Of a stretch of 64,000 bases of DNA, positions 30,407 to 58,213 are shown piece after piece. Below the pieces are notes generated by a model. That model was not told the DNA's origin. It was given only the letters and a program-made list of their open reading frames with translations, and searched no databases. Numbering within the stretch: position 1 is the stretch's first letter; each line of letters starts with the position of its first letter. The DNA is from Cyanidioschyzon merolae (lineage: Eukaryota), in NCBI GenBank assembly GCA_000091205.1, contig AP006494.2; one strand, written 5' to 3'. The position numbers were made by a program, and so were the translations under genes.

Positions 30407-30454
30407 CGCTAGTGGTACAAGTGGAAACGAAGCTTGCTTCTGTCTGCGCGCGCT

Positions 30455-35365: not shown

Positions 35366-35442
35366 AAAGATCACCGGTTTGTGGTTGCAAGATGCACTAT
35401 CCAAGGAGTTCATCGCACTACACGGTTGCGCTTCGCTCGCAT

Positions 35443-35469
35443 CTGCTGCTGCTGCTGCTGCTGCTGCTG
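35443..35469. repeat. (CTG)9 microsatellite
   Basis: Direct reading. Confidence 0.95.
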
Positions 35470-35508
35470 TTACAAAGGCCCACCTAGTTCCTCGTCGGTC
35501 CCACTGTC

Positions 35509-38457: not shown

Positions 38458-38592
38458 TGGAGTCGTTTGTTTTTTGGCATTACATGTGCAGTTGCACAAG
38501 TGACAACGCACATGTTACACCCGTGGCAGAATAAAGTGGAGCAGGTCGTTTCATCCAACACAAAGGAACAAGCTTGAGTTTGGAATTCCGTC

Positions 38593-39917
38593 CACGATCA
38601 TCAACTCCAGCCTATATGGGGTTTGTTCTGTAATTAGATTCTCCACCGTTCTCTTACGAGCGGATTGCAATACCTTGGACGTCTCTTGTCCTCTAAAATC
38701 GTTTACAGCAGTCAAAGGGTGATGACGGCAGCGCTCAAGTCCAGAGTTCACAGCATCCTGCAGTTTTTCACGTATTGCATGCATAGACGCAAGTCACAGT
38801 TCCCATGTCTTCTTCGTACACATCTGAGTGCGTCCTTCACACCAGTGACACTCGGCTGTGGTCAGCAGGCGATCGAATACGTGCTCGACAACGCCGCCCC
38901 CACGAGCTGTCCTGCAGCGCGTGAACGCTCGGGGCATCACTCGGTGGATGCCCTTGACGCATACTGAAAGCACCCAGCGAGGCGCTCGCTTCCGTTCCCG
39001 AGCCCCGTACCCTACACTGGGATCATCCGCTTCAGCTGAGCGATATCCTCAGCGAGTGTTGTATCGGCTGTGGGCGCAAGCGCACGCTGTTCCATTCGGC
39101 GGAGGAGTTATGGAATGCAATCTAGTCCGCCATGAAACGTGTACAGAAACGTACGTTCAAACCGGAGAACAAGCCGATAGACTCCGATCCGTCGACGCTT
39201 GTCTCGTACGTAGCGGTGGCGCATGCCCTACTGGTACCGAGTGCTGCGATGACCCCAGTCCGCTTCAGTCCACTTTTCCATGCGAGAACAGGAGAGACGA
39301 GCGCTTCTGGCAGCAGCACCAGCAGCACCATAGTGCCCTGAGAAGCATCACGCTGGTACTGAATGTCGATTCTTCACTGGTCATCACGAAAGGAGGATTT
39401 GTTTTCCGAAATGAATCGATCATTTGACGTGACAAGGCCAGTGGACGTTCAGCAAGCGCTCGTGAACAATGCGTCAGAGGACGACACGTCGGGGTTTCTC
39501 GCGTTGCGAGCCCCGCTGAACGACTCGCAGTGCGCACACGAGTTGCCTTGAGCCCCAAAAGATAAGATCGATCATGTAGAGACTTCGTGATTTGAACATA
39601 CTGCATGTCAGAAATGGAGAAGCGTCGAGATACGTGCGAATGAAGTATATCATGGTGTCACTGTATCGGTTGGTTGACGAACGCACGTACGAAAGCGTCG
39701 TGAAGCATCGTGATATCGGTGACGCCAGGAAATCCAGCAGCCGGGCGTCGAAGAGACCCCCGCGACCAGACCACCGATCATCCTAGAAGTACGAATGAAT
39801 CCGTGATCCCCCATTGCTGTACCTGGGCTCTCGATGCTGGGCATCTAGAAACGTTCGGAACTACGTCGCCAGGCATGCATGGAGCGTGCAGCTCAGCACT
39901 CCATTCTATACTGACAC
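38593..39917 (+). repeat. Dispersed direct repeat, copy A (about 1,325 bp). It is about 98-99% identical to copy B at 56877-58213 and has an internal (CAG)n tract shorter than in B.
   Basis: Identical ORF sets in the six-frame track at a constant offset of 18,284 bp (18,296 bp after the microsatellite). Boundaries were read directly: identity starts at 'cacgatcatcaactcc' and ends at 'ccattctatactgacac'. Confidence 0.9.
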
Positions 39918-41908
39918 ATCTGTAGCAGCGCTGCATGCTGTCCGTTGACGTGTACGTTTGCCCATCGCATGCACCACCACTACGGCTGCTACTTCAGTTA
40001 CCACCACCAACCCCAAAGTCTTGAATCGGAAACGCAGACAGGCGTCTTCACATCGGAGCAGCGCATATTGTAGTGGGACGCCCTCCGAATAGACGTTGTT
40101 TAGAGGCACGACGCCCTGTTCGTAGAAGCAAGGATGTATCCATTTGTCCACTTGTGATTCGTAGACTGGCACGAGTTGCAAGCTGCTGTCCTCCAGATAT
40201 CCGTACTGCCGCCGAGCGGTGTTCATCATTTCTACAAGTAGCCGCGCCTCGGTCTTAGAAGCATTGTCCAGTGGCAAGGTTGACTTTGCCTCGGAAACGA
40301 TGCAGGCTAGCAATCCCGGTTGCGTGCTGTTGTCTAGAGAACGTCACCTGGGTTCCTGGTTCCACCACGAATCTCGTGCTTTGGGACATACTGCTTTGGA
40401 GACCCTGGAACGTTATAGCATCCACGGAAGCACTGCAATCTTTTTCCGAGATATCTGTTTTGATCAGTGCCCTATCAGGGAGATGCTTGCCCGATGCATC
40501 CAACTTCGCTTAGGGACAAGCTGCTCCGAATTCCATGTACTGGAGCCGATCTTCCGAAAGACAGTATCCAGCTCGATGCATTCGTCGTGATCAGAGGAAA
40601 CTACTCCCCGCCGAACTGCAACAAGTGTGTACAAACACCTGCCCAGAGGCACGGTTGTGGAGCGTATCGGACCTCGGCACGAAAGCCGCGGAGAGCTCTA
40701 CAGCCGCACGGTGGTCTCTTGATCCGGCTTCCCACTCGTACAGAAGCACGGGTCTGTCTGAAACTTCTAGAACACAGCAGCACCTGCGGGGGAACTGTGG
40801 TCACGTCTCTGGTTACCGTTCGTATTCGTGGATTGTAGACACCACTGGTTTGACGCAGCGTTCCGTCAACAGGTACAGTAGCGCTAGTGCGGAAGCGTCA
40901 AGCGTACCGGACGTTGGTGCGCGGCACTGGCCTTTCGGGTCTGGACCTCTTTATGGGCAACTGTTTTGGAACAGAGCAGCGGACAAAGCACCGCGTGCAC
41001 CCAGAAAGCAGCTACCGGACGGAGTCCACGTCGTCAACCGTTCGACGAACGCCTCAGTCTGGCCGCGTCCTCGGTAGTGCAGCAGCGGGTGCAGACGCGC
41101 CAGCGCCCACCGAGCGACGAGAGGTGCTCGCGAAAGCCGCCGAATCGCGGACCCAGAAGTATCATAAGACAAGAGACAAGTCTGCGGGAGTTGAGCGGAA
41201 GCAGATGCGCGGACCTCGGGAACCATTGTCACCGGCCGAGCAGCGCCATCAAGAGGAGCTCGTTCGAGGTTGGCAGTCGTGAACGAGCTGGTGCCCCTCC
41301 ATAAGCTTTGCTCGCGCGTCGCCAGGCACCGACTCGACAAAACCAAGCCCCGGAACAAGTAAATGCGATCAAAGTGAGGTCAGGGCTTGTTGTCTCTGGA
41401 AGCAGCTTGCGGCCTTGCGCTAGACTCGACCGACCTGGAGCAGCGGACGTATCGCCCAGCGGGAGGAACCAGTGCACGTACTTCCACAACTTCCAAGGTC
41501 ACCAGCAAGGCATCCAAAGCAACGGACCATGGCATTGGATTGCGTCGCGTAGATGCTCGTACGGGCATCACCAAGCCGCCATTTCGGTGGACGATGTCCA
41601 CGATTCGCACCGCTTTCCGATGTGCATAGGATCTTGCCTCGAAGTCCGATGCGAACGCTGGTATAGCGCTGATGGAACACGAATGCAGCTTTCGAAGACG
41701 CCAGACCCATGCCTTGGTGATGAACGACACCATTCGTGTATCCGGACAAGTCTGGTTCAATCCACGGACGCTTGACCAGGAAACAAACATTGCATGGCGC
41801 TTGCATAGCTCCGACACGGTATGTGCAAACAGGTATGGTTTACGTCATCAGCCCTGGGTCGCATTCGCGGTACGCACACTCCGTTCCATCCACCTTCCAC
41901 GCCTTTTT

Positions 41909-44500
<2,592 letters not shown>

Positions 44501-44562
44501 TTACCGTTACAAGCGGTCGAGCGCTTCACAACGCGAATGCTGCCCGCACGCGATTCAGCAGG

Positions 44563-44600
44563 CGTGCGTGTGTGCGTGTGTGCGTGCGTGTGTGCGTGCG
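44563..44600. repeat. (GTGC/GT)n compound microsatellite just upstream (minus-strand sense) of the CDC48 start
   Basis: Direct reading. Confidence 0.9.
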
Positions 44601-45794
44601 CTTTGTATGGATACATGCATGAAGCAGGTATGCTCCGGCAACTTTGCGTGCGGCTCGAGTCGGTACTCTGTACAACGAGTGCATCACATGAATACGGAGT
44701 CCTCGTACATCGACAGGAAAAGTATATGATCGCACGCGTAGGTATAAAAAGTATATCAGTGATCAGCGCAGCTTGTCTTGCAAAAATGCCGATCAGGCTC
44801 ATTCGGCATGTCTTTCATATCAATTCTGTGACACCCCTGGTGCGGTGCATCGCAGGGGACCGAACAGACGATGGAATGTAGCACAGAGATCGTAGGCAAG
44901 TCGTCTGCAGGATACGTATTCCGTAATGAACAGTGCGACGAGGACAAAATTCATCCTCCCGGTCAGTCGTACCACAGTATTCAAGTGGTTGAGGAACTTT
45001 GAAAGAGCGACGCATATACGGACCGCACCAAAAACCGATAGTTTTAAAGATTGCTTGTGGTCAATGGTGGCGAACCACCCGTTGATCACGTTAAGGAAAG
45101 CAAAAGCGACGATCGTAGCCACCACGCACATCTCTGATCCTAACAGCTTGTTCGTATGGTCCTGAATACAATGGGACGCAGCTGCAAAAAATGTTCTAGT
45201 TCACATACGGCCATCTTCCACCGAAATCGCAACGGCAGCGTTCATGGATCGTCGCGATCAGTATGAAGCACAGTAACGTCGGTTGTTTCTTTCATCCGAT
45301 GAGACTTTCTTCGAACGAAACCGTCGGAGTGTGTATGGGCATTCGCGGAACACGGAGACCGTTGTATGTAGAATCGAACTCGAAAAGCAAGATGACATCA
45401 CCATCTATTCTTGATGTGGTGGATTCATTTGGCGGCCTCAGTTTTGCTCCCAGTGAGGGCTCGTGCAAAGGCACCAACCACTTTGTCGAATCATTGAATA
45501 CTTTTCGCTGAGGTCTGGCGACGACCTTCTATTCGACAACGTGGATTTTCTCCAATTTCCTCGAATTCGATTTTTGCCGATGGTATCGGAGGTAGAACTG
45601 CTTTTGATTCCTCCGTACGCTCCGTGGTTGAACGCCATCGAAGGTGCGTTTTGTATCGTGAAACATTATGATAGCTTCACTAGGCGAATCGCGGAAGCGT
45701 TCAGCGCACGGTGACACGGGGGAACGTATCGTCGCTCGTGAGCAAGTGCTTATGCTTGCGGGAGGCTGCTCATCTTAGAGCCTAAGGAAAACCC

Positions 45795-46230
45795 CTCAGA
45801 AATATATTATGGGATGAGCTGGGGTCTACATGTCAGAAGGTTGAAATGGAGAGAAGCCAGCGGGAGCGCTCTAGTGACCGGAAAAGACGTTGAGCTGACA
45901 CAGCACCAAATGGTACTGAGGGCACGAGGCCGCAGCATCCTTGAAATGATTAGTTCAGTCAGAGACAACGCACGCCAGGAGTTCGTGAACCGAGACTTCA
46001 ACGCCGCCATCAATATCAGACGATGTGTGGTGTTGGAGACGGGACTCGAGGAGCTGAGAAGATCCAAATTTGTGGGGCAGCCTCTTAAGTTCGAAATCTA
46101 CAGGGAGAAAATGAACCCGATCGGAGTCGGCCGGTCGAAAACGGCTGGAAGGCGTCTCTGCATCGATTCATTTATGCACGCTATGGTCGCGGGACGTGTT
46201 CTTTCCACTGAACACATAAGCATTTGCGAT
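45795..46230 (+). mobile_element. TnpB/Fanzor-like repeat copy 4. It is a 3' fragment with an intact RuvC-III-type motif 'FVNRDFNAAINIRRCVVLE' and the conserved 3' tail ('IGVGRSKTAGRRLC...'). It is embedded in a longer ORF, 45814-46680, that is otherwise unrelated.
   Basis: Homology to copies 1-3 begins near the Zn-finger-equivalent region ('SWGLHVRRLKWREAS') in a shifted frame. Nothing upstream is homologous. Confidence 0.5.
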
Positions 46231-47297
46231 CTTTCCGTAGCAACGGAAAACCATCCGAGAAAATGTTTATATATCGCATCGTTTAGTAACGATCAAGCCC
46301 GACGCTCACTCCGGACGGCTGTAGAACGCATGCCGTCCTCTGTTTCTACTGTTCTCAGCGGTGCTGTTCAGCAACGATGCAGCTGCATGGGCGACTCGTG
46401 CTCATCGCTCGCCCAGGGCGCGTCGGTTCCCAATGGATTCGCCTCAGTGAAGACCCGTCGTGAAACAATGGCACTCGGGTTAAACGCCACGAAACACACC
46501 GGGGGCTTAAGAGATGGAACTTGGCCATACGTGCATCCATCGGATTGCTGCACTTCCCAAGCGTATGGTGCATGGAAGCCTCCTGTGTCACATGGTGATC
46601 GCTTTCCTGGTTACCGACCGCGCTCGCGCACTGAGAGGCATCTGATTAGATCTACTGATTCCACAACATCAAGAGATTAGCAGGGTGCATTCAGGATCTT
46701 GCGACGGGGCGCTGTCCGGCGTCTGCCTTGCGACAAGCAGACCCGTACCTCGTGTCGCATGTCGCTGCGGACAGAACATGCCTTCGTCTCAAGGCAGGAT
46801 CGATGCGGTTCCCAGAGCCGCTCCATCGCCCACGCAATCCGCACGAGCGTGTGATTCGAGTCGACGAGTCGCTGCGGCTCATCGGGTCTTTCCTCGACGT
46901 CCAAATAAAAAATTGGCTTTAGTCTGGTGCGAATAAGGCACGTCTCGAGATGTACGCAGCTGCATCCGCAGGCCCGAGAATCACGATCGCGCATCCAAGC
47001 GATGTTGTATAGATACAGCGACTTTTTGTGCCATAATATCCATAAATGGGTCATTCCAGTCATGATGGATCAGCGCTCCTTGCGCGCTCGAGCGGACCTC
47101 GGCGCCTGACACGTTCGGGGCGGTAGGCGTTGCGCGCGACCCAGGCGACTCTGTTCATGCTGAAATAGATGTATATTTATAATCTAATATGTATATAAAG
47201 GACACATGATGCAGTGCACAAACCGGGCGCCGGCATCGCACCGTACCGTAACTGTGGATGCTAAGCTTACGCTATTACGGGGCGTCCAAGTCGGTAC

Positions 47298-50200
47298 TTG
47301 GAACCTGCACGTTGGCGTCCTACGACTGGTCACAGGAACCCGCAAATGGGCCAGCAGCAAAGTCGTACGCTGCGGAACCCGTCAGGGCACCTTCAGGATG
47401 CCAGTAGAGACGAGGAAACGGGAGCCGTTACCGACAGTCCCAAGACTAATTGTTGTCCGCGTTTGAGCCAAACGCTGGATTCCGGTGAGGCTCAAGGAGC
47501 CGAGACCTTGCGCGACGCTGCAGGACCGAGCGAAGGCTCTGGTGGAGCGACGGTGGGGAGAAGTCACCACACCACCCCGTTGCTCCGGGCTACGAGTGCT
47601 GCTGCTGCGTTGGCGACGGGGAACCCTCGCGGGGGCGCAAGCGAGCCCGGAGGCCCTGGTGAGGGTGTCCAGGGAACCATAGGGTCACCAGGGCTCACAT
47701 ATAGCCGTTTTCATTTGATGCAGATCGCAGCAGGTCGACCACTTGATGCCGTGACCATAGTGGAAACAGTCTACGGCAGAATGGTCGGGCTCGGAGCACC
47801 AGCGCCGCCCGAGCTTTCGGAAGCAAGGACTGCGTCCAGTTTAACTGTAGGTGAAGCGAACATGAACCTTTCCACTTTGCAGCCGACTTCGTATCCAAAC
47901 ACGTTCAACGCTGCGCTGCCGGCTGTGGAGCCTCCCGTACTCGTGCTCGATGAGTCGTCAGAGCCGGTCGCTGGCTTCCAGCCCTTGCACGGGAGGGTTG
48001 TTTCCAACTCGGCCACCACTGTTCATGAGTCTGTACCAGTTCAGTACGCTGAGTCAGATGCCAAGGCTGGAATAGCGCAGAGCGCGGGGGTTCAGATTGC
48101 CCGGCTACGTGCTCACGCCCGCCAGGAAGCAGCAGACGACTCGAGATCGAGCGCTTCACCAGAGTCGTCGGAAGAGGCGGGGGCACTCTCGGTTTCGCTT
48201 CCTAGCTCGCCTCAACTATCACGCATTAGTAGCTGGCGCAAATCGCAGCCGCGAGATCACCGCTTCATGAAAGACGGAGTGCGCTACTCCAGATCAATGA
48301 GGCACCAGTCATCGAGTCTGAGTCTTCGATCCCTCGGAAGGGCGGATACGATGGATGATGAAGCAGCACGGGAGCCGTCGCTTCTAGAAACCGGAACACC
48401 TAGCCAGTCACAGACTTGCTTTCAGGTCAGATCCGAGGAGGAAAGTTTCGCCGGTCCTCGGACCGTATCCGAGAAAGGTATGCGTGCGGCTCTTTCCAAT
48501 AACGCAACTGGGATGGCAACTATTTTGGAAGCGAAGACGAGCATGGATCCCAGTATCCAAGCAGAGCAAAGCGCCGCGATTTCAGCGCAGCTAGAATCTG
48601 CGCCTCCCAAAACGAGCCTAGGGTCACCGCCGCGTTCAGCGCCTTGGCGTCCAGCGGACACTGCAACGGAATCAAAAGAGCTTCGTGTTGGTGCGTCTGG
48701 TGATGGATATGCCCCCGAGGTTCACACTGCGCAAGATCACGCGCTGTTCGGGAATTATGCCGCATACGCACCTGATGCGACCTTCAGCTTCGCCACGGCA
48801 ATTCCGGTATCGGTGGCGACCTTGTATTTTGCAGACCCCGACAAGAGAGGAATTTTCTATGAAAAGAGCCTGGCATCGATTCTCCACAAGTGGCAGCGGT
48901 TCCGCGAAGAGTGCCGACGAGATTTAACGCTTCGCAGCCGAACGCGTCTACGAGCATTGAAAGCGGCCGCTCTGTTCTCAACTTCCGTCGTGAAAAGCCG
49001 TGGCATCCTCACGCTGAAGAGTGTTCGACGTTGCGTGGAACATGTCGACGTGCGCCGCATTTATCTGGGGCAAACGAACAACAGAGCACAGATCGGGCCA
49101 GAGGCGGCCACATCGCTCGATTTTGACACATGGAACGACACCGAGGGGGATCCGGACGCAGATTCTGCAAGCAGCGACAATCAGGCGAACGCCGAAGATG
49201 AAACAGCGGAGGATGATGATGAGGAGAATCCACCGCAGCAGCAACAGCAACAGCAGCAGCAGTCCAGCGAAAACGCTGCAGCGTATGCTGCTGGGCGTGT
49301 TATGCAGGATCTGCCAGGCTCAATGCAGCACGCCAGCGCATCGAGCAGCGCGGTACCTGCCGCGGATCGTGTGGGCGCCTGCGATAGTCATCAGGATGAC
49401 CAGGATACGAGAATGAGTGATGATGAAAGTGACGAGGACGAAGACTTTGACGAGAGCGATGATGAACGTAGCTCCTTCGAGGATTCGGACTCGACCTCGA
49501 ACGACTCGAGCGTTGTGCTACGGCGGACGCCCGCGAATCACGCCTCTCATGGTGTAGCAGCTCGTGATCAGCGCTCTGCGCCAGCTTCTGAGGCACCCAT
49601 CGCCCAAGCAGCGGACTCAGCGTCCGCCCCGAACAACCTGCTCGCCGAACGGACACCGCAAGCGAGCAGCAGCGAAGCGTACCGACAGATGCAGACGAGC
49701 GCGAGCGCCCAAACGAGCACCACGTCTGCCACGACGACAGCGTCGTCGACCACTGCTAGAGCGCAACGGTCCTCTGCAACCGGACGCTCGCGGGAATTAG
49801 CCCAAAGCGATTGGATACAGGCTCAAGTCAAAGAGGTCGAGCGACTCGAGCGCCGCGCAAACCGCTGGCAACTCTACACCATCCACAAGCTGCTGCCCTG
49901 GGGCGAAGATCGAATCTGTGACAAATTTGATCAATTCGATCTAGGGGCCATCCGCCGCACGCGCTCGTGGCCAACGATGGACCCGCACGACGCCTCCGCA
50001 CACGTGGATCATACGGCGTTGATGGCGGGAACCTTCATTGAACGTCAAACAGCAGCTGGATTTGAGCATTTCGACCTGACCGAGGCGGCGATCAGTCTCG
50101 AAGCAGCTGCGCGCATGCTTCGCCACGACATTGTGAAACTCGCAGAGATCATGGAGGACAACGACGAAGAGCGCAAGAACTTTAGCGTATGGCTCTTGCG

Positions 50201-52496
50201 CTTGGCGACTGGTGGTCGGATTCGGAATGAGCTCCAGACGCCTGAGACGCTTCAGGGGCTGCGATGTGCGAATCCCTCGGTATCGAGTGCGGAGCAGTGT
50301 ACGCTTCACACGCACACACAGAATGGGCGTGCGCCTACCTCGACGCCTATGGCTAGCGCTAGCCTTGTGGGTGCGAGCACGCGGCAGCTTATGCCCGCTG
50401 CCGTGCCCCCAGGTGCATGTCTCGACGAGCGTAGCACGATGCGTTCCGCAGAAGATGAAATCCAGAGCGGCAACATCGTGGACATGCACGGCATAGCGGC
50501 GGTTTTGCGAATGCTCTGGGAGGACTGCATCGACGTCTTCGAGGCAGATTTCGCGAACCGGCGCCACGATGATCTCGCTTTCCCGAACGATGAAACTACG
50601 GAAGCGTTTCGACGCCTCTTGGATAACATTGTGGACTCGTTCTCGCCGGCAGCGAGCCTGTCGGTATCGCATCGGGATAGTCGCCACTTTTTGACGACGG
50701 AGGAATTCATGAGCCTCGCTGATCTCCTAACCCGTATGTATGTTCGCCAAAAGAATCGAATGGAATGCGTTGGACGCTACGAGATTGGTCGGCTACTAGG
50801 ACGAGGCTCCGAGGGGCGCGTTCACGTCGCTCGTGATATCTACACCGGGCGCCGGTACGCCATCAAAATGATCCGTCGAGGCAAGTTTGTGGAGTTTGCG
50901 CGTATCGATCGTGAGGTGCAAGCAATGCAGGTCGTTGCCCGCCATCCCAACGTGATCCATCTGCACGAGGTACTCGAATCCCGCCGCAACGTCTACCTCG
51001 TCATGGAGCTGTGCGGAGGTGGCAGCGTGTACGAGTTCGCTTACGCCCGCCTGTGTCGTACGTCGGAGCAGCTGGATCGCAACAAACCAGAACCGCTACT
51101 AGATGAGGCGGAAGTGCGCTTCCTCGTGCGTCGACTTGTTGAAACGGTGGCATTCTGTCATGCACATGGGGTCAGTCATCGGGATCTGCGGTTGAACAAC
51201 CTCATGCTCCTGGATAGTGGTGAATTGAAAATTGCTGATTTCGGACAAGTTGGACTGTTCAGTGCCGGTTGGGATATGTTCGAGACGAACCTAGTTGGCT
51301 CGCTTTATAACCTCGCCCCAGAACTGGTACAAGGACAAGTCTATCAGAGCACCAAGGTCGACGTCTGGTCCTGTGGTGTGATCCTCTACTGGTTACTCGA
51401 GGGTCATCCGCCGTTCCCCGAGGAGGATCTCAACCGACTCATTCCGGCGATTGTGCAGTGTCGATATGCGCCGATGCGCCTGGCGTCGCCCTTGGCCCAG
51501 GACCTTATTCGCAGGATTCTGGTACCGCCAGCTGAGCGTCCTGAAGCGGCAGCGCTGCTCGCGCATCCCTTTTTCACTGGTGTCGAAGCCGACTCGCCGG
51601 CCGCTGCGGACACAACGCCCAAGCCAACGACAGCGTCTGCTGCTGCTGCTGGGGGAATGTCTGCCGCGGCTCCAGACGGTACTGTCGCCGGTACAAGTAC
51701 TGCAAATGCGGCGAATGCGCTAGGCTATTCCAGAGTCCGTGGGAGCGATCCAGCATGGGAGCGGCCTCTCCAGATGGATGTCCGCGATTTCGCCCTCTGT
51801 GACGCCTCCATTCTCCAAAGCATCGAAGCGGACGGGGGTTCGCTGGCCCTACAGACCATGTCCAGTGTGCTGAGCGATGGCGACATCCATTTTCATCCGG
51901 GTCTCTGTGTAGAACTGCATCGCCGGTATCGGTGGACGCTGCGCTGTTACTGGCCCGAACATGACATCAAGTTCAGTGTTGCACTGGTAGCGGGGCCACC
52001 ACGTGACGATGATGGCTACCTCTGTTGCTGTGGCGGCGAGTTCCAGTATCATCGACGTGCGTTTGCGAGTCGCGCACAACGACCACCGCTGGTTTATACG
52101 CTCTCTTTTCGCCGGCGCGGTGGCGGTAGCCTCCTCTTTATGCGTGCAGTTTGCAAAATCGCGGATCGTTTCTATCAGCGATACCGACGTTTGCTGCAGA
52201 CACCAAACCGCTGGAAGCTTGACACCTCGGACCAGAAAACGCTACCAGTTGGCGTGGAGGTATCGCCGGAGACCAACGAGGCACCTGCTGGTGCTGCAGT
52301 CGGTATTGCCGGTGGACGGGGCTCGCTCGAGTCCCGCTTGAATCCGTCGCGCTTCTCGCGTCCAGTTCGACGACTTTTGTATCGTTTGCATCTGTCGAGT
52401 GCCGCGAGTCGACGTGGTACCCCGAGTCAAGCGCAGTCGCCGACGACGAATAGTGGAGCGCAGCGTATTCCCTCAGAAAACGACGATGCTGTCTAA
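47298..52496 (+). CDS. Serine/threonine protein kinase, 1,732 aa in a single exon. A low-complexity N-terminal region of about 1,150 aa carries polyQ and acidic tracts; the C-terminal CAMK-like catalytic domain is near 50760-51570 and is followed by a C-terminal region of about 300 aa.
   Basis: G-loop 'GRGSEGRV', 'YAIKMI', catalytic loop 'HRDLRLNN', 'IADFGQ', 'APELV', 'DVWSCGVILY'. Confidence 0.8.
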   Translation: MEPARWRPTTGHRNPQMGQQQSRTLRNPSGHLQDASRDEETGAVTDSPKTNCCPRLSQTLDSGEAQGAETLRDAAGPSEGSGGATVGRSHHTTPLLRATSAAAALATGNPRGGASEPGGPGEGVQGTIGSPGLTYSRFHLMQIAAGRPLDAVTIVETVYGRMVGLGAPAPPELSEARTASSLTVGEANMNLSTLQPTSYPNTFNAALPAVEPPVLVLDESSEPVAGFQPLHGRVVSNSATTVHESVPVQYAESDAKAGIAQSAGVQIARLRAHARQEAADDSRSSASPESSEEAGALSVSLPSSPQLSRISSWRKSQPRDHRFMKDGVRYSRSMRHQSSSLSLRSLGRADTMDDEAAREPSLLETGTPSQSQTCFQVRSEEESFAGPRTVSEKGMRAALSNNATGMATILEAKTSMDPSIQAEQSAAISAQLESAPPKTSLGSPPRSAPWRPADTATESKELRVGASGDGYAPEVHTAQDHALFGNYAAYAPDATFSFATAIPVSVATLYFADPDKRGIFYEKSLASILHKWQRFREECRRDLTLRSRTRLRALKAAALFSTSVVKSRGILTLKSVRRCVEHVDVRRIYLGQTNNRAQIGPEAATSLDFDTWNDTEGDPDADSASSDNQANAEDETAEDDDEENPPQQQQQQQQQSSENAAAYAAGRVMQDLPGSMQHASASSSAVPAADRVGACDSHQDDQDTRMSDDESDEDEDFDESDDERSSFEDSDSTSNDSSVVLRRTPANHASHGVAARDQRSAPASEAPIAQAADSASAPNNLLAERTPQASSSEAYRQMQTSASAQTSTTSATTTASSTTARAQRSSATGRSRELAQSDWIQAQVKEVERLERRANRWQLYTIHKLLPWGEDRICDKFDQFDLGAIRRTRSWPTMDPHDASAHVDHTALMAGTFIERQTAAGFEHFDLTEAAISLEAAARMLRHDIVKLAEIMEDNDEERKNFSVWLLRLATGGRIRNELQTPETLQGLRCANPSVSSAEQCTLHTHTQNGRAPTSTPMASASLVGASTRQLMPAAVPPGACLDERSTMRSAEDEIQSGNIVDMHGIAAVLRMLWEDCIDVFEADFANRRHDDLAFPNDETTEAFRRLLDNIVDSFSPAASLSVSHRDSRHFLTTEEFMSLADLLTRMYVRQKNRMECVGRYEIGRLLGRGSEGRVHVARDIYTGRRYAIKMIRRGKFVEFARIDREVQAMQVVARHPNVIHLHEVLESRRNVYLVMELCGGGSVYEFAYARLCRTSEQLDRNKPEPLLDEAEVRFLVRRLVETVAFCHAHGVSHRDLRLNNLMLLDSGELKIADFGQVGLFSAGWDMFETNLVGSLYNLAPELVQGQVYQSTKVDVWSCGVILYWLLEGHPPFPEEDLNRLIPAIVQCRYAPMRLASPLAQDLIRRILVPPAERPEAAALLAHPFFTGVEADSPAAADTTPKPTTASAAAAGGMSAAAPDGTVAGTSTANAANALGYSRVRGSDPAWERPLQMDVRDFALCDASILQSIEADGGSLALQTMSSVLSDGDIHFHPGLCVELHRRYRWTLRCYWPEHDIKFSVALVAGPPRDDDGYLCCCGGEFQYHRRAFASRAQRPPLVYTLSFRRRGGGSLLFMRAVCKIADRFYQRYRRLLQTPNRWKLDTSDQKTLPVGVEVSPETNEAPAGAAVGIAGGRGSLESRLNPSRFSRPVRRLLYRLHLSSAASRRGTPSQAQSPTTNSGAQRIPSENDDAV

Positions 52497-52692
52497 AAGG
52501 CAGGCGAGAGGAAACGAAATTATGTCGTGGCGATGCGTTTTCATTGGTATGGAGCGTGGTACTGCAAGTACCTTTACCTGGATCGAGGGCGCGCAAACCA
52601 CGCACGCCATGAACGGAGCAGGCATCCGCGATACCCTGTACAAACAGTGGGAAACCTCAGCACATCCTTGATCGTTTGTGTGAGTGCGTGTG

Positions 52693-52726
52693 ATTCATTC
52701 GTTCGTTCGTTCGTTCATTCATTCAT
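52693..52726. repeat. (TCGT/TCAT)n microsatellite between the kinase and SMC3 3' ends
   Basis: Direct reading. Confidence 0.9.
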
Positions 52727-55700
52727 AACTGGCCTGGAGAAGCGATGTGCGTTCGCCGCCTGCAACTGGTTGCATATCTGGTGCGGTACCCGATTCCGTA
52801 TCCCCGGTAGGTGCGAGTATCGCAACTTGCTCGTTCGTGGCGTCGATGGGCAACGACGCTGGTCCAGTGACGAAAGCTAAAGCCTCCGCCACGGAGACGG
52901 GCTCAACACACGATACACGTCCACGAATCGTAACGCCGTAGCAGCGATCCGCAACACGAACGAGTTCCGGGCGAAATGTGGTGAGAATCAACTGTGGACG
53001 CGAGACGGATGAACGTGCTGCAGACGCTTCGGTTCCATGACCAGCATCAGGGCCTGGTTGTCGTTGCTGCAAAAGCGCTGCGATGCGTTCGCGCGAGGCA
53101 GCGTCGAGACTGGCGTCTATTTCATCGAAGAGATAAAAAGGGGCAGGGTCCAGACGTTGAATGGCCAGGATCAAAGCCAGGGCTACCAGGGTTTTCTGGC
53201 CACCGCTCAGCGCCGCCATCAAGCTGAAGTGATCCTCCGATGGAAAGCGCACACGAATAGCGACCCCGGCAAAGTCCACGTTCGTGTCGGTGGTATCGGA
53301 CGCAGTCGGATGCGGACCTCGTTGCATGACGAGCTGGGCCGTACCACCGGGGACCAGCTCAGCGAATACAGCAGAGAAGAGTCTGGCGATTCCTTTGAAA
53401 GTGCGTTGCAAGTCGTTGGCTCGTCGATGGTCCAGGGTATGGATGAGCGTTCGGATCGAGTCGTCGCCACGATCGAGTTCCTCAAGGCGGGTGCGCAGCT
53501 CCTCGCGTTGGTTCGCAAACACCAGATATTGTTCGAGCGCTTTCTGGTTAACCTGGCCCAACTGGCTGAGGCGGGTATTTGTCGCCTCCAGACGTTGCAT
53601 GAGCGTTGTCAGCGGCACATGGGCGAGCTCGTGATGTTGGGCGGGAGCAGGTCCGAGTTCCCGCAGTTTGCGCTCGGTCTCCGCTTTGCGTTGCTGGAGA
53701 TGCGTATGACGTGCGACGTGGATTTGTAGGCGCTGGCTTTCGGTGGCGAGGGCCTCCTTGGCTACGGGAAGTTGTGCCTCCAGTGAGTCACGCTTTCGAG
53801 CGAGGGCGTCAAGTTCGGTGGCTGTGCGCTGAAGCGCCTCAGCGATGCGATCCTGCGAGACTCGCTGGGCCTGGAGCACGCTGCCAAGCGTCTCGAGCTC
53901 TCTACGCAAGCTCGTCTGACGTGTTTGTAGCTCCGCTATAGACGGAGGCGCTTCATCCGGATCGCTCTGCAACGCGACTGGCACAGAGATGCCGGACGCT
54001 GAATCGAAGAGCTCCGGTGCATCCTCGAAAGTCTCGCGAAGAAAACGTTTCTCCAGCTCCCGCAACTGACGCTCGATGCACGTTTCCAACTCGCTTTCAA
54101 TCTCGACGAGACGCTGCTCGAGGGTAGCACGTGCTGCAGCGACTGATTCTAGCTCTTTTTCGAGTGCAGCAAGCCGGGCAACGAAGGCATCTGCAGAAAT
54201 CGCTGTCTGCGGTGTAGGTGATGACGATGAGGATGAGAGTGCTGCGGTCCGTTCCGAAAACTCATCGCGCAAGCTGCTGAGCACCAGTTCATATTCGTGA
54301 ACATGTCGCTGCAGGGTTTGCATGCGCTGCCGTTCAGTCTCGAGCGCAGCCTCAATGGAGAGCTTCTCACGATCCAGTTGGGTGAGCGCACGTTGATGGT
54401 CGCGCAACTGATTGAATAGGTTGCGCTTTTCAGCTTCGGATTTCTGGAGTTCGTTCATCGTCCGCTGAATCTGCGATTCCAGTGCGGCAAGTTGTGCTCG
54501 GATTTGCTCACGCTCGGACTCAATCTGTTGAATTTGGATGCGGATCTTGTCGTAACGCAGCAGCGAGGCAAGTCGAGACTGGCGCCGATCCGTGTATCCA
54601 CCGTGCATTGCCCCGCGTTTGTTCACAAGGTCGCCCTCTAGGGTCACGCAAGGCACATTGTACCCGCGAGCCAGTTTCGATGCGATTAATATGGAGCGAG
54701 CAATGAGCGTTCCAGCCACCACGCGCTCAAATACAGGGCTGAAGCGCTCATCGCGTAGGCGCAGCCGCGAAACCAACGGAACAGCCTCTTCGGTGGGTGG
54801 CGGGCTCATAGAGTTGCGCTTCGCGGCGTCTGATGCATCGTCTCGTACCCGGTTCAGAGGAATGAAGGTTAACCGGCCTGCATTGGCTTCGCGTAGCCTT
54901 TGAATGAGATATGCCGCGGTTTCATCGGTATCTACAACGATGTAGCAGAGCGCCGACCCCATTGCAGCCTCGACGGCGACGTAAAACTTTTCATCCGTCT
55001 CGAAGAGCGTATAGAGTGGGCCGTAGATCGTACCGCTGTACTGCAGGTTGCAGATATACTGATACGCGTTGAGAAACTTGCTTCCGACCGACATGCGTTT
55101 GCGGCGCTCGCTCTCCGTGAGTTCGGATAGCAACGTAGCACGCGAGCTCTCGAGTTCTGCTTCTCGACGCCATAGTTCCTGACGTGCTCGATGCGCTTCG
55201 TTGCGCTCACGTTTTAACTCGGCTAGACGCGCATTCAACGCGTTCAACTGTTCACGATCCGAGGCAAATTGGGTTTCATTAGTTTTGCGACGCTCGGCTA
55301 TACTCGATAGCTCAAATTCAAGACGATGAATTTCTCGTTCCGTTTCCTGCAACTGGGATCGCGTTTCATGTCGCAGCTCTTCGTTCCGTGCAATCTCGTT
55401 ATGGAACCATGCGTTACATTCATCGACTGTTCTAAATTGGACGTCTCGTGTTTCTCGTGCCTGGAGCTGCACAAGCTCCTGTTGCGTCATAGCCATCGCG
55501 GTCCGCAGATGCTGTTCCTGTTCTCGAAGACGTTCATACTCTGGAAGAATGCGATCACGTTCAGCGCGGCGCTGCTGTGCTGCTTGCCGCAGTGTCTGGA
55601 TTTTTTGCTCCACTCGATCCAGCTCGATCGTCTCATTTTCTAGCTGCTGCGTTACGAGCGCCAATTCAGTTTCCAGCGCACTGCGCTGCTCTGCCGCTTT

Positions 55701-56588
55701 GACTAACTCCAGCTTCACCGAGCTTTGGTCCACCTCGAGACGCGCTCGTTCCCTTTCTATCTCGGCTATACGCTGCTCAATTTCCTCAAGCTCTACCTCA
55801 AGACGCCGGCACTCCTGATGCATCTTACCGAGTTGAACGCCTTCATGCTGTCGCTCATGCTCCAAAGACTCCAGCTGGGTTTTCAGTTCGGTGAGCTCGC
55901 GCTCGTATATAGCTCTCTCCAGCGAGCGCCTTTCGCGGTCAACTTGCTGATAAGCAACCAATTGCTCCTTCTCATTTTCAAGTTCCTGCAGCCGTTTCTC
56001 AATATACTCCAGAATCTCGCGGATCTTTGCTCGCTTTCCGATGCTCTCTTCAAGGATGCGGAGGGATTCGGCACGCTTCTCCTCATAGGTGCGTGTGCCA
56101 GCGATTTCCTTCAGGAGCTCAAGTCGCTGATCGTCCTTCATCGTACAGAGAGCAGCGACCTTTCCCTGTTGCACGATATAGTACGGATTTGAACGAGAGA
56201 ATCCGGCACTCTCAAAGAGAGCCGTAACCTCAGCTCGGGAGACACTCCGACGATCAAGCAGATACTCGTCTTTTTGCAACCCAAACATTCGCCTGAGCAC
56301 AACCCGGGAACGTTCGATTGGCAGACGCCCGTCACTGTTATCGAAAGTGACTTCTATGAACGCAGATAGCACACGCCCAGATGGGCCTTCATGTAGAAGA
56401 GCAGACCGCTGCTCGGCGTTGAGACCGGGTCCCGCGTCCCCAAGTAGCAGACGCACGGCTTCGAGCAGGTTCGATTTTCCTGAACCATTGCGCCCGACAA
56501 CGACGTTTAACCCTTCGTGAAACGGACCGATAAACGTTTCGTCCTTATATGACTTCCATCCACAGATTCGGATCGAGTGGATGTGCAT
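52719..56588 (-). CDS. SMC3: SMC3 (cohesin ATPase subunit). The true start is probably Met 56588; the ORF is open to 56747.
   Basis: N-terminal Walker A 'NVVVGRNGSGKSN', hinge 'YGPLYTLFETDEKFYVAVEAAMGSAL...FIPLN', and C-terminal signature 'LSGGQKTLVALALILAIQRLDPAPFYLFDEIDASLDA', which is closer to SMC3 than SMC1. The centre is a long coiled coil. Confidence 0.9.
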   Translation of the reverse strand: MHIHSIRICGWKSYKDETFIGPFHEGLNVVVGRNGSGKSNLLEAVRLLLGDAGPGLNAEQRSALLHEGPSGRVLSAFIEVTFDNSDGRLPIERSRVVLRRMFGLQKDEYLLDRRSVSRAEVTALFESAGFSRSNPYYIVQQGKVAALCTMKDDQRLELLKEIAGTRTYEEKRAESLRILEESIGKRAKIREILEYIEKRLQELENEKEQLVAYQQVDRERRSLERAIYERELTELKTQLESLEHERQHEGVQLGKMHQECRRLEVELEEIEQRIAEIERERARLEVDQSSVKLELVKAAEQRSALETELALVTQQLENETIELDRVEQKIQTLRQAAQQRRAERDRILPEYERLREQEQHLRTAMAMTQQELVQLQARETRDVQFRTVDECNAWFHNEIARNEELRHETRSQLQETEREIHRLEFELSSIAERRKTNETQFASDREQLNALNARLAELKRERNEAHRARQELWRREAELESSRATLLSELTESERRKRMSVGSKFLNAYQYICNLQYSGTIYGPLYTLFETDEKFYVAVEAAMGSALCYIVVDTDETAAYLIQRLREANAGRLTFIPLNRVRDDASDAAKRNSMSPPPTEEAVPLVSRLRLRDERFSPVFERVVAGTLIARSILIASKLARGYNVPCVTLEGDLVNKRGAMHGGYTDRRQSRLASLLRYDKIRIQIQQIESEREQIRAQLAALESQIQRTMNELQKSEAEKRNLFNQLRDHQRALTQLDREKLSIEAALETERQRMQTLQRHVHEYELVLSSLRDEFSERTAALSSSSSSPTPQTAISADAFVARLAALEKELESVAAARATLEQRLVEIESELETCIERQLRELEKRFLRETFEDAPELFDSASGISVPVALQSDPDEAPPSIAELQTRQTSLRRELETLGSVLQAQRVSQDRIAEALQRTATELDALARKRDSLEAQLPVAKEALATESQRLQIHVARHTHLQQRKAETERKLRELGPAPAQHHELAHVPLTTLMQRLEATNTRLSQLGQVNQKALEQYLVFANQREELRTRLEELDRGDDSIRTLIHTLDHRRANDLQRTFKGIARLFSAVFAELVPGGTAQLVMQRGPHPTASDTTDTNVDFAGVAIRVRFPSEDHFSLMAALSGGQKTLVALALILAIQRLDPAPFYLFDEIDASLDAASRERIAALLQQRQPGPDAGHGTEASAARSSVSRPQLILTTFRPELVRVADRCYGVTIRGRVSCVEPVSVAEALAFVTGPASLPIDATNEQVAILAPTGDTESGTAPDMQPVAGGERTSLLQASYE

Positions 56589-56876
56589 GAGCCTTGTCCT
56601 CTGCCGGGCAGTTGTGAAAGGGCCCGCGATAGCGCCTCTGGAACTAACGAGGACTCGGTGCAGGGCACACCCGAGTGCTCCGCGCCAATATCGTACCCGC
56701 GCGCGCGAATGGCGCCGCGCATTTCGATTCGCCATGGAGGTCGACATGGACGCCCGTTATCAAGTTGGTACAATTGTATAAAATATGGAATATATGGATT
56801 AGGTACTTTTCAGAATGGAAATGGACGGTGCTCTGACCGTACTAGGTTGCACGCACTCGGGGTTTATGTATCTTGA

Positions 56877-58213
56877 CACGATCATCAACTCCAGCCTATA
56901 TGGGGTTTGTTCTGTAATTAGATTCTCCACCGTTCTCTTACGAGCGGATTGCAATACCTTGGACGTCTCTTGTCCTCTAAAATCGTTTACAGCAGTCAAA
57001 GGGTGATGACGGCAGCGCTCAAGTCCAGAGTTCACAGCATCCTGCAGTTTTTCACGTATTGCATGCATAGACGCAAGTCACAGTTCCCATGTCTTCTTCG
57101 TACACATCTGAGTGCGTCCTTCACACCAGTGACACTCGGCTGTGGTCAGCAGGCGATCGAATACGTCCTCGACAACGCCGCCCCCACGAGCTGTCCTGCA
57201 GCGCGTGAACGCTCGCGGCATCACTCGATGGATGCCCTTGACGCATACTGAAAGCACCCAGCGAGGCGCTCGCTTCCGTTCCCGAGCCCCGTACCCTACA
57301 CTGGGATCATCCGCTTCAGCTGAGCGATATCCTCAGCGAGTGTTGTATCGGCTGTGGGCGCAAGCGCACGCTGTTCGATTCGGCGGAGGAGTTATGGAAT
57401 GCAATCTAGTCCGCCATGAAACGTGTACAGAAACGTACGTTCAAACCGGAGAACAAGCCGATAGACTCCGATCCGTCGACGCTTGTCTCGTACGTAGCGG
57501 TGGCGCATGCCCTACTGGTACCGAGTGCTGCGATGACCCCAGTCCGCTTCAGTCCACTTTTCCATGCGAGAACAGGAGAGACGAGCGCTTCTGGCACCAG
57601 CAGCAGCAGCAGCAGCAGCAGCACCAACGCGCCCTGAGAGGCATCACGCTGGTACTGAATGTCGATTCTTCACTGGTCATCACGAAAGGAGGATTTGTTT
57701 TCCGAAATGAATCGATCATTTGACGTGACAAGGCCAGTGGACGTTCAGCAAGCGCTCGTGAACAATGCGTCAGAGGACGACACGTCGGGGTTTCTCGCGT
57801 TGCGAGCCCCGCTGAACGTCTCGCAGTGCGCACACGAGTTGCCTTGAGCCCCAAAATATAAGATCGATCATGTAGAGACTTCGTGATTTAAACATACTGC
57901 ATGTCAGAAATGGAGAAGAGTCGAGATACGTGCGAATGAAGTGTATCATGGTGTCACTGTATCGGTTGGTTGACGAACGCACGTACGAAAGCGTCGTGAA
58001 GCATCTTGATATCGGTGACGCCAGGAAATCCAGCAGCCGGGCGTCGAAGAGACCCCCGCGACCAGACCAGCGATCATCCTAGAAGTACGAATGAATCCGT
58101 GATCCCCCATTGCTGTACCTGGGCTCTCGATGCTGGGCATCTAGAAACGTTCGGAACTACATCGCCAGGCATGCATGGAGCATGCAGCTCAGCACTCCAT
58201 TCTATACTGACAC
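56877..58213 (+). repeat. Dispersed direct repeat, copy B (about 1,337 bp; (CAG)9 tract at 57598-57624)
   Basis: See copy A. Confidence 0.9.

What the first reader, a model, noticed from the sequence alone, without database searches (positions are those of the whole stretch)
38593..58213. About 1.33-kb near-identical direct repeats bracket an 18.3-kb block carrying CDC48, a giant kinase and SMC3
Copy A (38593-39917) and copy B (56877-58213) are in the same orientation and about 98-99% identical. They differ by a few substitutions, e.g. gtgctc/gtcctc, ctcgggg/ctcgcgg, and by the length of an internal (CAG)n tract (B is 12 bp longer). The interior is ordinary essential genes, so this is not an LTR element. 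It points to a recent segmental duplication or a young dispersed repeat, and it is a ready substrate for non-allelic homologous recombination that would delete or duplicate CDC48, the kinase and SMC3. The repeat itself has only short ORFs with no recognisable homology.
Basis: seen in the sequence. Interest (0 to 1): 0.55.

Follow-up and report, generated by a model that had tools for sequence, protein, structure and literature searches.

The report
Small non-coding repeat family, red alga
The two 1.3-kb direct repeats are real, but they are the youngest two copies of a small, non-coding repeat family (at least four copies) scattered through one ancient gene neighbourhood of the red alga Cyanidioschyzon merolae, which is ordinary genome "wear and tear" and not a new kind of element.

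Summary
Observation confirmed. Copy A (38593-39917) and copy B (56877-58213) are direct repeats, 98.6% identical. They differ by a 12-bp (CAG)n indel and have razor-sharp ends. The window is Cyanidioschyzon merolae 10D chromosome 12. All four repeat/flank junctions recur in independent hot-spring metagenome contigs, so this is not an assembly artefact.

The pair is not a one-off duplication. A third copy, C (94-96% identical), lies on chromosome 20 between aconitase and a methyltransferase. An old inverted copy, D (about 60-65% identical), lies at window 62680-63842.

All four copies sit in four different intergenic spacers of one gene block. That block is collinear and repeat-free in the sister genus Cyanidiococcus.

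The unit has no conserved ORF, no Pfam or Rfam match, no covariation, no terminal inverted repeats and no poly(A).

A and B share 24 bp and 12 bp beyond the 1,289-bp core defined by C, including a CTATA direct repeat. One was therefore copied from the other, flanks included. Shared private variants show gene conversion.

Best reading: a low-copy, locally spreading, non-coding duplicon. Whether it is a templated-repair product or a non-autonomous element relic is unresolved.

Interest is low to moderate.

The parts
38593..39917 (+). Repeat copy A (R_A), 1325 bp. It lies between the 3' end of CML020C and the 2-kb unannotated spacer downstream of CDC48.
   Evidence: junctions re-found in L004, L005, L007, L009, L012, L014
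56877..58213 (+). Repeat copy B (R_B), 1337 bp. It lies 130 bp upstream of the annotated SMC3 ATG and 289 bp upstream of the conserved Met54 start.
   Evidence: left junction in L016-L019; right junction in L010 and L015
38617..39905 (+). The 1,289-bp core of copy A. This is the part shared with the chromosome-20 copy C. BLAST limits are 38618-39905 in three independent contigs.
56901..58201 (+). Core of copy B.
38604..38616 (+). ACTCCAGCCTATA, left member of a 13-bp imperfect direct repeat. Its last 5 bp (CTATA, 38612-38616) abut the core and form a candidate target-site duplication. The same motif is at 56888-56900 in B.
   Evidence: the pattern ACTCCANNCTATA occurs only at the four repeat ends in 64 kb; 0 expected
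39898..39910 (+). ACTCCATTCTATA, right member of the direct repeat. CTATA at 39906-39910 follows the core. The same motif is at 58194-58206 in B.
39310..39330 (+). Imperfect (CAG)n tract inside the repeat, variable in length between copies. B (about 57594-57626) is 12 bp longer, C in L008 is 6 bp longer, and the A copy in L004 is 15 bp longer.
62680..63842 (-). Copy D, an old inverted family member at about 60-65% identity to A. It lies in the spacer between the MT294 methyltransferase and ATP synthase gamma.
   Evidence: tblastx summed E = 1e-25; nhmmer E = 1.3e-87 with a profile built only from A/B/C-type copies, covering 63757-62692; alignment
39918..56876 (.). The bracketed interior: a 2-kb unannotated spacer, CDC48 (41909-44488, minus), a degenerate DDE_3 transposase remnant (about 45466-46680), the kinase (47298-52496, plus) and SMC3 (52719-56747, minus). 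Gene order is the same as in Cyanidiococcus.
38323..38592 (+). A 270-bp segment of unknown origin between a duplication breakpoint inside CML020C (38322) and R_A.
30533..38322 (+). A neighbouring, larger duplicated segment that ends 270 bp before R_A. It has a counterpart on chromosome 20 next to CCT-eta: 93% identity over the repeat-rich part and 98-99% over CML020C.

Best explanation
R is a lineage-specific, non-coding, low-copy dispersed repeat (a 'duplicon') of Cyanidioschyzon merolae.

The unit is a core of about 1.29 kb. It has been copied at least three separate times into different intergenic spacers of one ancestral block of about 40 kb: aconitase^MT479, CCT^CDC48, SMC3^MT294 and MT294^ATP-gamma. 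That block was later split between chromosomes 20 and 12.

A and B are the youngest pair. One is a secondary DNA-level copy of the other, and the copy carried 24 bp of left flank and 12 bp of right flank with it. Since then the copies have exchanged sequence by gene conversion.

The fact that A and B bracket CDC48, the kinase and SMC3 is incidental. Those genes were already there.

My committed mechanism for the spread (inferred, about 45%) is short-range, templated copy-and-insert during break repair or replication, meaning template switching or ectopic repair synthesis. The region is demonstrably prone to such duplications. The close alternative (about 30-35%) is a non-autonomous, locally hopping mobile element without terminal inverted repeats, like the other unclassified C. 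merolae elements.

Shown: the copies, their limits, their positions relative to the outgroup, the lack of coding or RNA-structure signal, and the conversion signature. Inferred: the copying mechanism, the direction of copying, and the absence of function.
For: - Real and reproducible: for the repeat; for the junctions.
- Organism and genes.
- Copy C: L008, L025 and L026 carry aconitase|R|MT479 with homology limits 38618-39905. The CCT and SNF5 proteins of L008 are 100% identical to 10D proteins BAM83471 and BAM83472 on the 1.62-Mb chromosome.
- Copy D.
- Outgroup: Cyanidiococcus has DnaJ-ATPgamma-MT294-SMC3-kinase-CDC48-CCT-SNF5-MT479-aconitase on one contig. No R-like sequence was found there (nhmmer, E up to 100). 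Its MT294-SMC3 spacer is 1.0 kb, and 0.6 kb in a second lineage, against 3.4 kb in the window.
- Low copy number: look-up of the exact 69-aa ORF found 20 contigs. The 10 places shown fall into contexts A, B and C only; the other 10 contigs are under 2 kb and were not shown. A 27-mer scan found 2 contigs.
- Non-coding: no Pfam match; frames are broken differently in different copies; no protein relatives.
- No Rfam match. The RNAalifold covariation term is +7.2, and many pairs are broken in D.
- A/B share flanks and the CTATA repeat.
- Gene conversion: 10D A and B share ACATCTG where every environmental A, B and C copy has ACAAG(C/T)TG. Environmental A and B differ at 5 of 1165 sites, yet each differs at 10-20 sites from its 10D orthologue.
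- Duplication-prone neighbourhood: window 30533-38322 has a counterpart on chromosome 20, and that duplication ends 270 bp from R_A.
Against: - Both ends of the A/B unit lie within 24 and 12 bp of the ends of the older core. This is hard to get from random repair endpoints and fits a mechanism that recognises the element ends, i.e. a transposable element.
- A perfect 5-bp direct repeat (CTATA) flanks the core in A and B, like a target-site duplication.
- I could not search the complete 10D genome, so more copies, especially old ones like D, may exist outside this block. The argument that the copies cluster locally rests mainly on the three young copies.
- Environmental contigs come from metagenome assemblies in which chimeras occur. 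Part of the mosaicism, and of the similarity between environmental A and B, could be an assembly effect.
- Absence from Cyanidiococcus could be divergence beyond detection and not true absence, except where the spacers are too short to hold a copy.
Confidence: 0.6

Rival explanations
1. R is a non-autonomous mobile element, or a relic of one. It would be a 1,289-bp unit (TGGGG...CTCCATT) that inserts with a 5-bp target-site duplication. It would be mobilised in trans and prefer nearby targets. Copy B would arise from copy A by imprecise end recognition that transduced short flanks.
For: - Copies of three different ages have nearly the same end points.
- A perfect CTATA repeat flanks the core in A and B, and ACTCCANNCTATA occurs only at the four ends.
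- There is a weak 6-bp terminal inverted match, TGGGGT/ACTCCA.
- All copies are intergenic.
- The known C. merolae elements CMe-1A and TE-N2_CMe also lack terminal inverted repeats and have no determinable target-site duplications (PMC3627910).
Against: - Copy C has no target-site duplication: GTATT on the left, GTGCA on the right.
- A and B share flank outside the putative duplication, which true transposition does not produce.
- There are no terminal inverted repeats, LTR structure, poly(A) or significant terminal hairpins.
- There is no similarity to the CMe-1A copies in the window.
- Only three contexts were found for the young subfamily.
- No LTR elements are reported in this genome (PMC1955436).
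Confidence: 0.3
2. This is the first reader's reading taken literally: one recent segmental duplication of an intergenic stretch, with no wider family.
For: A and B are 98.6% identical, are on the same chromosome in the same orientation, and share flank sequence beyond the family core.
Against: Copy C on chromosome 20 and copy D at 62680-63842 show repeated copying over a long time. Both A and B predate the split between 10D and the environmental strains.
Confidence: 0.05
3. R is a functional multi-copy unit kept by selection. It could be a non-coding RNA gene or a promoter/regulatory module. Three of the four copies lie on the 5' side of genes, and two lie in divergent promoter regions.
For: - Conserved blocks persist between A and D at about 60-65% overall identity.
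- B lies 289 bp upstream of the conserved SMC3 start. C lies about 390 bp from both the aconitase and the MT479 start codons.
- C. merolae repeats are reported to be transcribed (PMC1955436).
Against: - No Rfam family matches.
- The consensus fold has a positive (unfavourable) covariation term, and roughly a third of the pairs are broken in D.
- No reading frame is conserved.
- The outgroup manages the same genes without it.
- Polymorphism within R is higher than in its flanks.
Confidence: 0.08
4. The repeat is an assembly artefact: a collapsed or duplicated repeat in the 10D reference.
For: Nothing specific.
Against: The 10D sequence is a finished telomere-to-telomere assembly. A and B each carry private substitutions. 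All four junctions appear in independent metagenome assemblies, and one contig of 19,022 bp covers 38165-57153.
Confidence: 0.01

Closest known systems
Low-copy repeats / small segmental duplications ('duplicons') at evolutionary breakpoints
   Same: - Copies are over 1 kb, over 90% identical and few in number.
- They are non-coding and have sharp junctions.
- They cluster next to another, larger inter-chromosomal duplication and next to a synteny breakpoint (CCT|CDC48).
- The copies undergo gene conversion and are potential substrates for unequal recombination.
   Different: - The unit is very small.
- It has been re-copied several times with nearly the same ends.
- It carries a 5-bp flanking direct repeat. 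These last two features are more typical of mobile elements than of random segmental duplication.
Unclassified C. merolae repeats CMe-1A (Fanzor1-bearing, about 150 copies, about 3 kb) and TE-N2_CMe (635 bp, about 70 copies), Bao & Jurka 2013 (PMC3627910). These are probably the '253-copy interspersed element' of Nozaki et al. 2007 (PMC1955436).
   Same: Same genome. No terminal inverted repeats, no clear target-site duplications, intergenic, class unknown.
   Different: R shows no sequence similarity to the CMe-1A-like copies in the window (30533-32571 and 2334-3325). It has no Fanzor ORF. It is much rarer (at least 4 copies seen) and its young copies are confined to one ancestral neighbourhood.
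Solo LTRs of LTR retrotransposons
   Same: Size of about 1.3 kb; direct orientation of A and B; the core starts with TG; a 5-bp flanking direct repeat in A and B.
   Different: - The sequence between A and B is host genes in ancestral order.
- The flanks of the A...B pair are not duplicated (CCGTC on the left, GGGTA on the right).
- The core ends in CATT, not CA.
- Copy C has no target-site duplication.
- No LTR retrotransposon is known in C. merolae (PMC1955436).

Membership tests
LTR retrotransposon (A and B as the two LTRs) | The internal region encodes gag/pol, or is at least element-derived and not host DNA. | tested here: not met
   The interior is CDC48, the kinase and SMC3, in the same order and orientation as in Cyanidiococcus, which has no repeats.
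LTR retrotransposon (A and B as the two LTRs) | A 4-6-bp target-site duplication immediately outside the 5' LTR and the 3' LTR. | tested here: not met
   Left of A is ...CCGTC and right of B is GGGTA....
Solo LTR | TG...CA termini, with a 4-6-bp target-site duplication at every copy. | tested here: inconclusive
   The core begins TGGGG and ends CTCCATT. CTATA flanks the core in A and B. Copy C has GTATT on the left and GTGCA on the right.
Segmental duplication / low-copy repeat | At least 1 kb, at least 90% identity, low copy number, not a recognisable high-copy transposable element. | tested here: met
   1325 and 1337 bp at 98.6% identity. Only contexts A, B and C appear among the places shown for the exact 69-aa ORF. 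No similarity to other repeats in the window. Copy number across the whole genome could not be measured.
Non-LTR retroposon / SINE-like element | A 3' poly(A) or simple-repeat tail, variable-length target-site duplications, and 5' truncated copies. | tested here: not met
   Neither strand has an A-rich or simple-repeat tail. D may lack the first 100-200 bp, but that end is too diverged to judge. Local clustering of the copies is not expected for retroposition.
Helitron | 5' TC, 3' CTRR preceded by a hairpin, insertion between A and T. | tested here: not met
   The ends are CACGATC...CTGACAC (unit) or TGGGG...CCATT (core). The terminal hairpins are no better than shuffled sequence, with z between -0.65 and +0.48.
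CMe-1A / TE-N2_CMe (Fanzor1-associated C. merolae elements) | Sequence similarity to the family consensus, or a Fanzor1 (TnpB-like) ORF. | tested here: not met
   tblastx and blastn of R against the rest of the window, which holds CMe-1A-like copies at 2334-3325 and 30533-32571, find only copy D. No such ORF is present. The Repbase consensus itself was not available.
Structured non-coding RNA gene family | A match to a curated RNA family, or base pairs supported by compensatory change. | tested here: not met
   Rfam has no match at E up to 1. RNAalifold on A, B, C and D gives a covariation term of +7.17 kcal/mol. Only 22 of 282 pairs show double changes, and many more are broken in D. Only the plus strand and five sequences were tested, so this is a weak test.

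The most novel reading that the evidence does not exclude
The R copies are active players in the evolution of chromosome arrangement in a genome famed for its simplicity. Recombination between R_C (chromosome 20) and R_A (chromosome 12) would have produced a balanced translocation, aconitase|R|CDC48, that segregates in natural hot-spring populations. Three contigs from three samples (L002, L003, L006) carry this junction.

In addition, or instead, R may represent an unrecognised class of mobile DNA without terminal inverted repeats. It would spread by short-range hops within one neighbourhood.
Probability: 0.2. Interest if true: 0.5.

Novelty: new member of a known kind. Interest (0 to 1): 0.25.

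Why it matters
C. merolae is used as a 'minimal' eukaryote with a finished genome and routine gene targeting by homologous recombination. Three consequences follow.

- Practical: 1.3-kb repeats at 94-99% identity flank CDC48, SMC3, aconitase and other targets. This matters for construct design, for read mapping and for interpreting structural variants.
- Evolutionary: the family shows that even this genome, which has few transposable elements, accumulates and homogenises small duplicons around an evolutionary chromosome breakpoint (CCT|CDC48). It gives a dated series of copies, from about 60% to 99% identity, for studying gene conversion in a haploid alga.
- Limits: it does not reveal a new biological system.

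Tried and rejected
- Rfam and tRNA scans of the repeat found nothing.
- Pfam on eight ORFs from the repeat found nothing credible.
- A homology search with the longest ORF of a C-type copy (161 aa) returned only its own cluster.
- The metagenome 27-mer scan returned only 2 contigs, because that collection does not hold the samples rich in this alga.
- Exact look-ups of the 10D SMC3 and CML020C proteins failed. The 10D genome itself is not in the contig index, so a direct copy census in 10D was impossible.
- A literature search for locus tags CML020-025 returned only leukaemia and osteoarthritis papers.
- The 2024 'dispersed repeats' paper (PMC11050394) deals with 108-600-bp units derived from position weight matrices and was not informative.
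- LTR element, Helitron, SINE, structured RNA and organelle-DNA insertion were rejected. For organelle DNA, the repeat is 54% G+C and has no organelle-like features.
- I considered that A...B arose by integration of a circle, or by tandem duplication followed by deletion. Neither explains why the A/B ends sit 24 and 12 bp outside the older core.
- Short direct repeats at the unit ends are too short to carry weight: CAC at A, TGACAC at B, ATT at C.
- The Fanzor assignment of the window's other repeats could not be confirmed with Pfam, because the fragments are too short. It rests on a visible ...NRDFNAAINIRRC... motif and on PMC3627910.
Full report
**1. The observation**

A self-comparison of the window finds one long direct repeat, 38593-39917 against 56877-58213. 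MAFFT gives 1307/1325 identical aligned bases (98.64%) plus a 12-bp length difference in an imperfect (CAG)n tract. The first 290 bp are identical. Identity falls to background within a single base at both ends. There are no inverted repeats. The interior is 16,959 bp. It holds CDC48 (41909-44488, minus), a kinase of about 1,715-1,732 aa (47298-52496, plus) and SMC3 (52719-56747, minus).

**2. Source and reality of the repeat**

Exact protein look-ups identify the window as Cyanidioschyzon merolae 10D chromosome 12 (859,119 bp). CML020C is BAM80657, CDC48 is BAM80658 and SMC3 is BAM80660. No protein is annotated inside either repeat. The 10D genome is a finished telomere-to-telomere sequence (PMC1955436).

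Environmental contigs about 99% identical to 10D reproduce every junction:
- The left and right junctions of A are in L004, L005, L007, L009, L012 and L014.
- The left junction of B is in L016-L019.
- The right junction of B is in L010 and L015.

One contig, Ga0504773_001424 (19,022 bp, held as L009 plus L016), runs from 38165 to 57153. It covers all of A, the whole interior and the first 277 bp of B. An assembly artefact is excluded. Both copies predate the split between 10D and these wild strains.

**3. More family members**

Contigs carrying CDC48 or a short ORF of the repeat revealed a third context, aconitase|R|methyltransferase(479 aa)-SNF5/GATA-CCT-eta (L008, L011, L025, L026). The CCT and SNF5 proteins of L008 are 100% identical to 10D proteins BAM83471 and BAM83472. 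MT479, aconitase and a SCY1-like kinase fall in the same 90% clusters as BAM83473-83475. All of these are consecutive on the 1,621,617-bp chromosome 20.

Copy C is 94-96% identical to A and B. In three independent contigs its homology runs exactly from 38618 to 39905. So C lacks the first 24 bp and the last 12 bp of the A/B unit.

A translated self-search and an nhmmer profile built from the A/B/C-type copies also found an old inverted copy, D. It lies at about 62680-63842 (E = 1.3e-87, about 60-65% identity). No other copy exists in the window or in the contigs fetched up to that search.

The exact 69-aa ORF of the repeat occurs on 20 environmental contigs. The 10 places shown belong only to contexts A, B or C; the other 10 contigs are under 2 kb and were not shown.

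**4. What the unit contains**

- Coding: none of the eight ORFs tested matches Pfam. The longest frames are interrupted at different places in different copies. A 1-bp indel fuses or splits the minus-strand ORFs, and the frame shifts between R and D. A database search with the 161-aa ORF of a C-type copy finds only itself.
- RNA: Rfam gives nothing. A consensus fold of A, B, two C copies and D has an unfavourable covariation term (+7.2 kcal/mol), with many pairs broken in D.
- Ends: the terminal 80 nt fold no better than shuffled sequence. There are no terminal inverted repeats, no poly(A) and no LTR-like internal structure.
- One notable feature: the motif ACTCCANNCTATA occurs only four times in 64 kb, at the two ends of A and the two ends of B. 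As a result, CTATA directly flanks the 1,289-bp core on both sides, which is a candidate 5-bp target-site duplication. Copy C has no such duplication.

**5. Comparison with relatives**

In Cyanidiococcus yangmingshanensis one contig carries DnaJ - ATP synthase gamma - MT294 - SMC3 - kinase - CDC48 - CCT-eta - SNF5/GATA - MT479 - aconitase. A second, more distant lineage shows the same order from DnaJ to CDC48. No R-like sequence is detectable in these 45 kb.

The spacers compare as follows:

| Spacer | Cyanidiococcus | Second lineage (L024) | C. merolae |
|---|---|---|---|
| MT294-SMC3 | 1.0 kb | 0.6 kb | 3.4 kb (holds B) |
| ATP-gamma-MT294 | 1.6 kb | 2.6 kb | 3.5 kb (holds D) |

The outgroup MT294-SMC3 spacers are too short to hold a copy.

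The bracketed genes are therefore old residents and the repeats are the newcomers. All four known copies occupy four different spacers of this single ancestral block: aconitase^MT479, CCT^CDC48, SMC3^MT294 and MT294^ATP-gamma. In C. merolae the block has since been broken between CCT (now chromosome 20) and CDC48 (chromosome 12). For the three young copies, which were found by context-blind look-ups, this clustering cannot be chance in a 16.5-Mb genome. For D there is ascertainment bias, because it was found only because it lies in the window.

**6. The neighbourhood is a patchwork of duplications**

Window 30533-34270 is 93% identical to the sequence that follows CCT on chromosome 20 (L008). 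Window 34392-38322 is 98-99% identical to environmental contigs L035-L038. In those contigs CML020C has a different C-terminus (976 aa) and is followed by NADH-ubiquinone oxidoreductase subunit, TRAPP and homeobox genes. In 10D those three are BAM83469, BAM83468 and BAM83467, next to CCT on chromosome 20.

The two kinds of contig both stop near position 34300, as expected at the edge of a near-identical two-copy segment. The chromosome-12 CML020C therefore looks like a 3'-truncated duplicate with its breakpoint at 38322, only 270 bp from R_A. This is the signature of a rearrangement junction repaired with copied DNA. That is why I favour a DNA-level copy-and-insert origin for R_A.

**7. Exchange between copies**

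10D A and 10D B share a private complex variant, ACATCTG at 38821-38823. All thirteen environmental A, B and C sequences have ACAAG(C/T)TG there. Environmental A and B differ at only 5 of 1165 sites, while each differs at 10-20 sites from its 10D orthologue. Variants are distributed in blocks shared between paralogues. This is concerted evolution by gene conversion. One caveat applies: metagenome assembly can blur paralogues, and chimeric contigs do occur (L029, L030 and L032 join algal DNA to foreign sequence).

**8. Possible recombinants**

Three contigs from three samples (L002, L003, L006) read aconitase|R|spacer-CDC48. Their R is C-like on the left and A-like on the right. L006 shows one clean switch, between 38743 and 38833; L003 is A-like again in the middle. 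This is what recombination between R_C and R_A would give, i.e. a balanced 12;20 translocation. It is equally what an assembler would give by stepping between paralogues. I could not find or exclude the reciprocal junction. I put the real-variant reading at about one in three.

**9. Mechanism**

Shown: the copies, their limits, their ages, their positions relative to the outgroup, their non-coding nature and the conversion signal.

Inferred: how copies are made. Because the A/B unit includes 24 and 12 bp of flank beyond the older core, the last step (A to B, or B to A) copied a resident insertion together with its surroundings. It was not a clean transposition. The local clustering and the adjacent larger duplication favour templated repair or replication template switching (about 45%). 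The near-coincidence of ends across events and the CTATA repeat favour a non-autonomous element with sloppy ends (about 30-35%). The known C. merolae elements CMe-1A and TE-N2_CMe likewise lack terminal inverted repeats and clear target-site duplications (PMC3627910). A functional RNA or regulatory module is unlikely (under 10%).

**10. Consequences**

Unequal recombination between A and B would delete or duplicate CDC48, the kinase and SMC3. C. merolae 10D is haploid and these genes are essential (both from established knowledge), so the deletion product should be lethal. None was seen. The repeats matter in practice for gene targeting and read mapping in this model alga.

**11. Verdict**

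This is a real but ordinary feature: the two youngest members of a small, previously unremarked non-coding repeat family near an evolutionary breakpoint. Interest is 0.25. Novelty: a new member of a known kind.

Noticed in passing
window 30533-32571 and 2334-3325: These are diverged interspersed repeats, about 76% identical to each other. 30639-31540 and 31697-32571 are inverted copies of one another. Fragmentary ORFs carry a TnpB/Fanzor-like motif (...FVNRDFNAAINIRRC..., ORF 30664-30957, minus strand). They are probably copies of the Fanzor1 element CMe-1A, which is likely the '253-copy WSV486-like element' of the genome paper. Pfam did not confirm this on the short fragments.
   Followed up: partly
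window 38322/38323 (inside CML020C, 35509-38457): Environmental contigs L035-L038 match the window up to 38322 and then diverge. They give CML020C a different 39-aa C-terminus (976 aa against 982 aa) and different downstream neighbours: NADH-ubiquinone oxidoreductase subunit, TRAPP and homeobox, which in 10D are on chromosome 20. The annotated chromosome-12 gene may be a truncated duplicate with a chimeric tail.
   Followed up: partly
window 56589-56747: The annotated SMC3 (1342 aa) probably starts 53 codons too early. Nucleotide similarity to Cyanidiococcus SMC3 runs only up to 56598, near Met54 (MHIHSIRICGW...). Every environmental gene call uses that start, giving 1289 aa.
   Followed up: partly
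window about 45466-46680 (between CDC48 and the kinase): A degenerate DDE_3 (Tc1/mariner-type) transposase remnant. The 83-aa ORF of the orthologous contig L001 hits PF13358 at E = 1.3e-5, below the gathering score. This spacer is 2.8 kb here against 0.9 kb in Cyanidiococcus.
   Followed up: partly
L002, L003, L006 (compare L025, L026): Contigs from three samples join the aconitase flank of copy C to the CDC48 flank of copy A through a mosaic repeat. This is either a natural 12;20 translocation or an assembly chimera.
   Followed up: partly
L029 1-941, L030 1-110, L032 1-161: These metagenome contigs switch, about 200 bp upstream of the MT479 start codon, to unrelated sequence. In L029, the only one read, that sequence is AT-rich and includes a nucleoside-diphosphate-kinase gene. 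They are assembly chimeras and a warning about using these contigs for structural inference.
   Followed up: yes
window 39310-39330 and 57594-57626; the same tract in L004 and L008: The internal CAG/CAC microsatellite differs in length in almost every copy and strain (0, +6, +12, +15 bp). It is the fastest-changing part of the unit.
   Followed up: partly
window 29339-30667 (minus strand): A 442-aa ORF with an Exo_endo_phos domain (E = 4e-17). It looks like a cellular AP endonuclease and not a LINE endonuclease. Its first 45 codons overlap the start of the CMe-1A-like repeat at 30533, where similarity to chromosome 20 begins.
   Followed up: no
window 10970-11044: A short 31-bp near-perfect direct repeat, 10970-11000 against 11014-11044, seen in the self-BLAST.
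   Followed up: no
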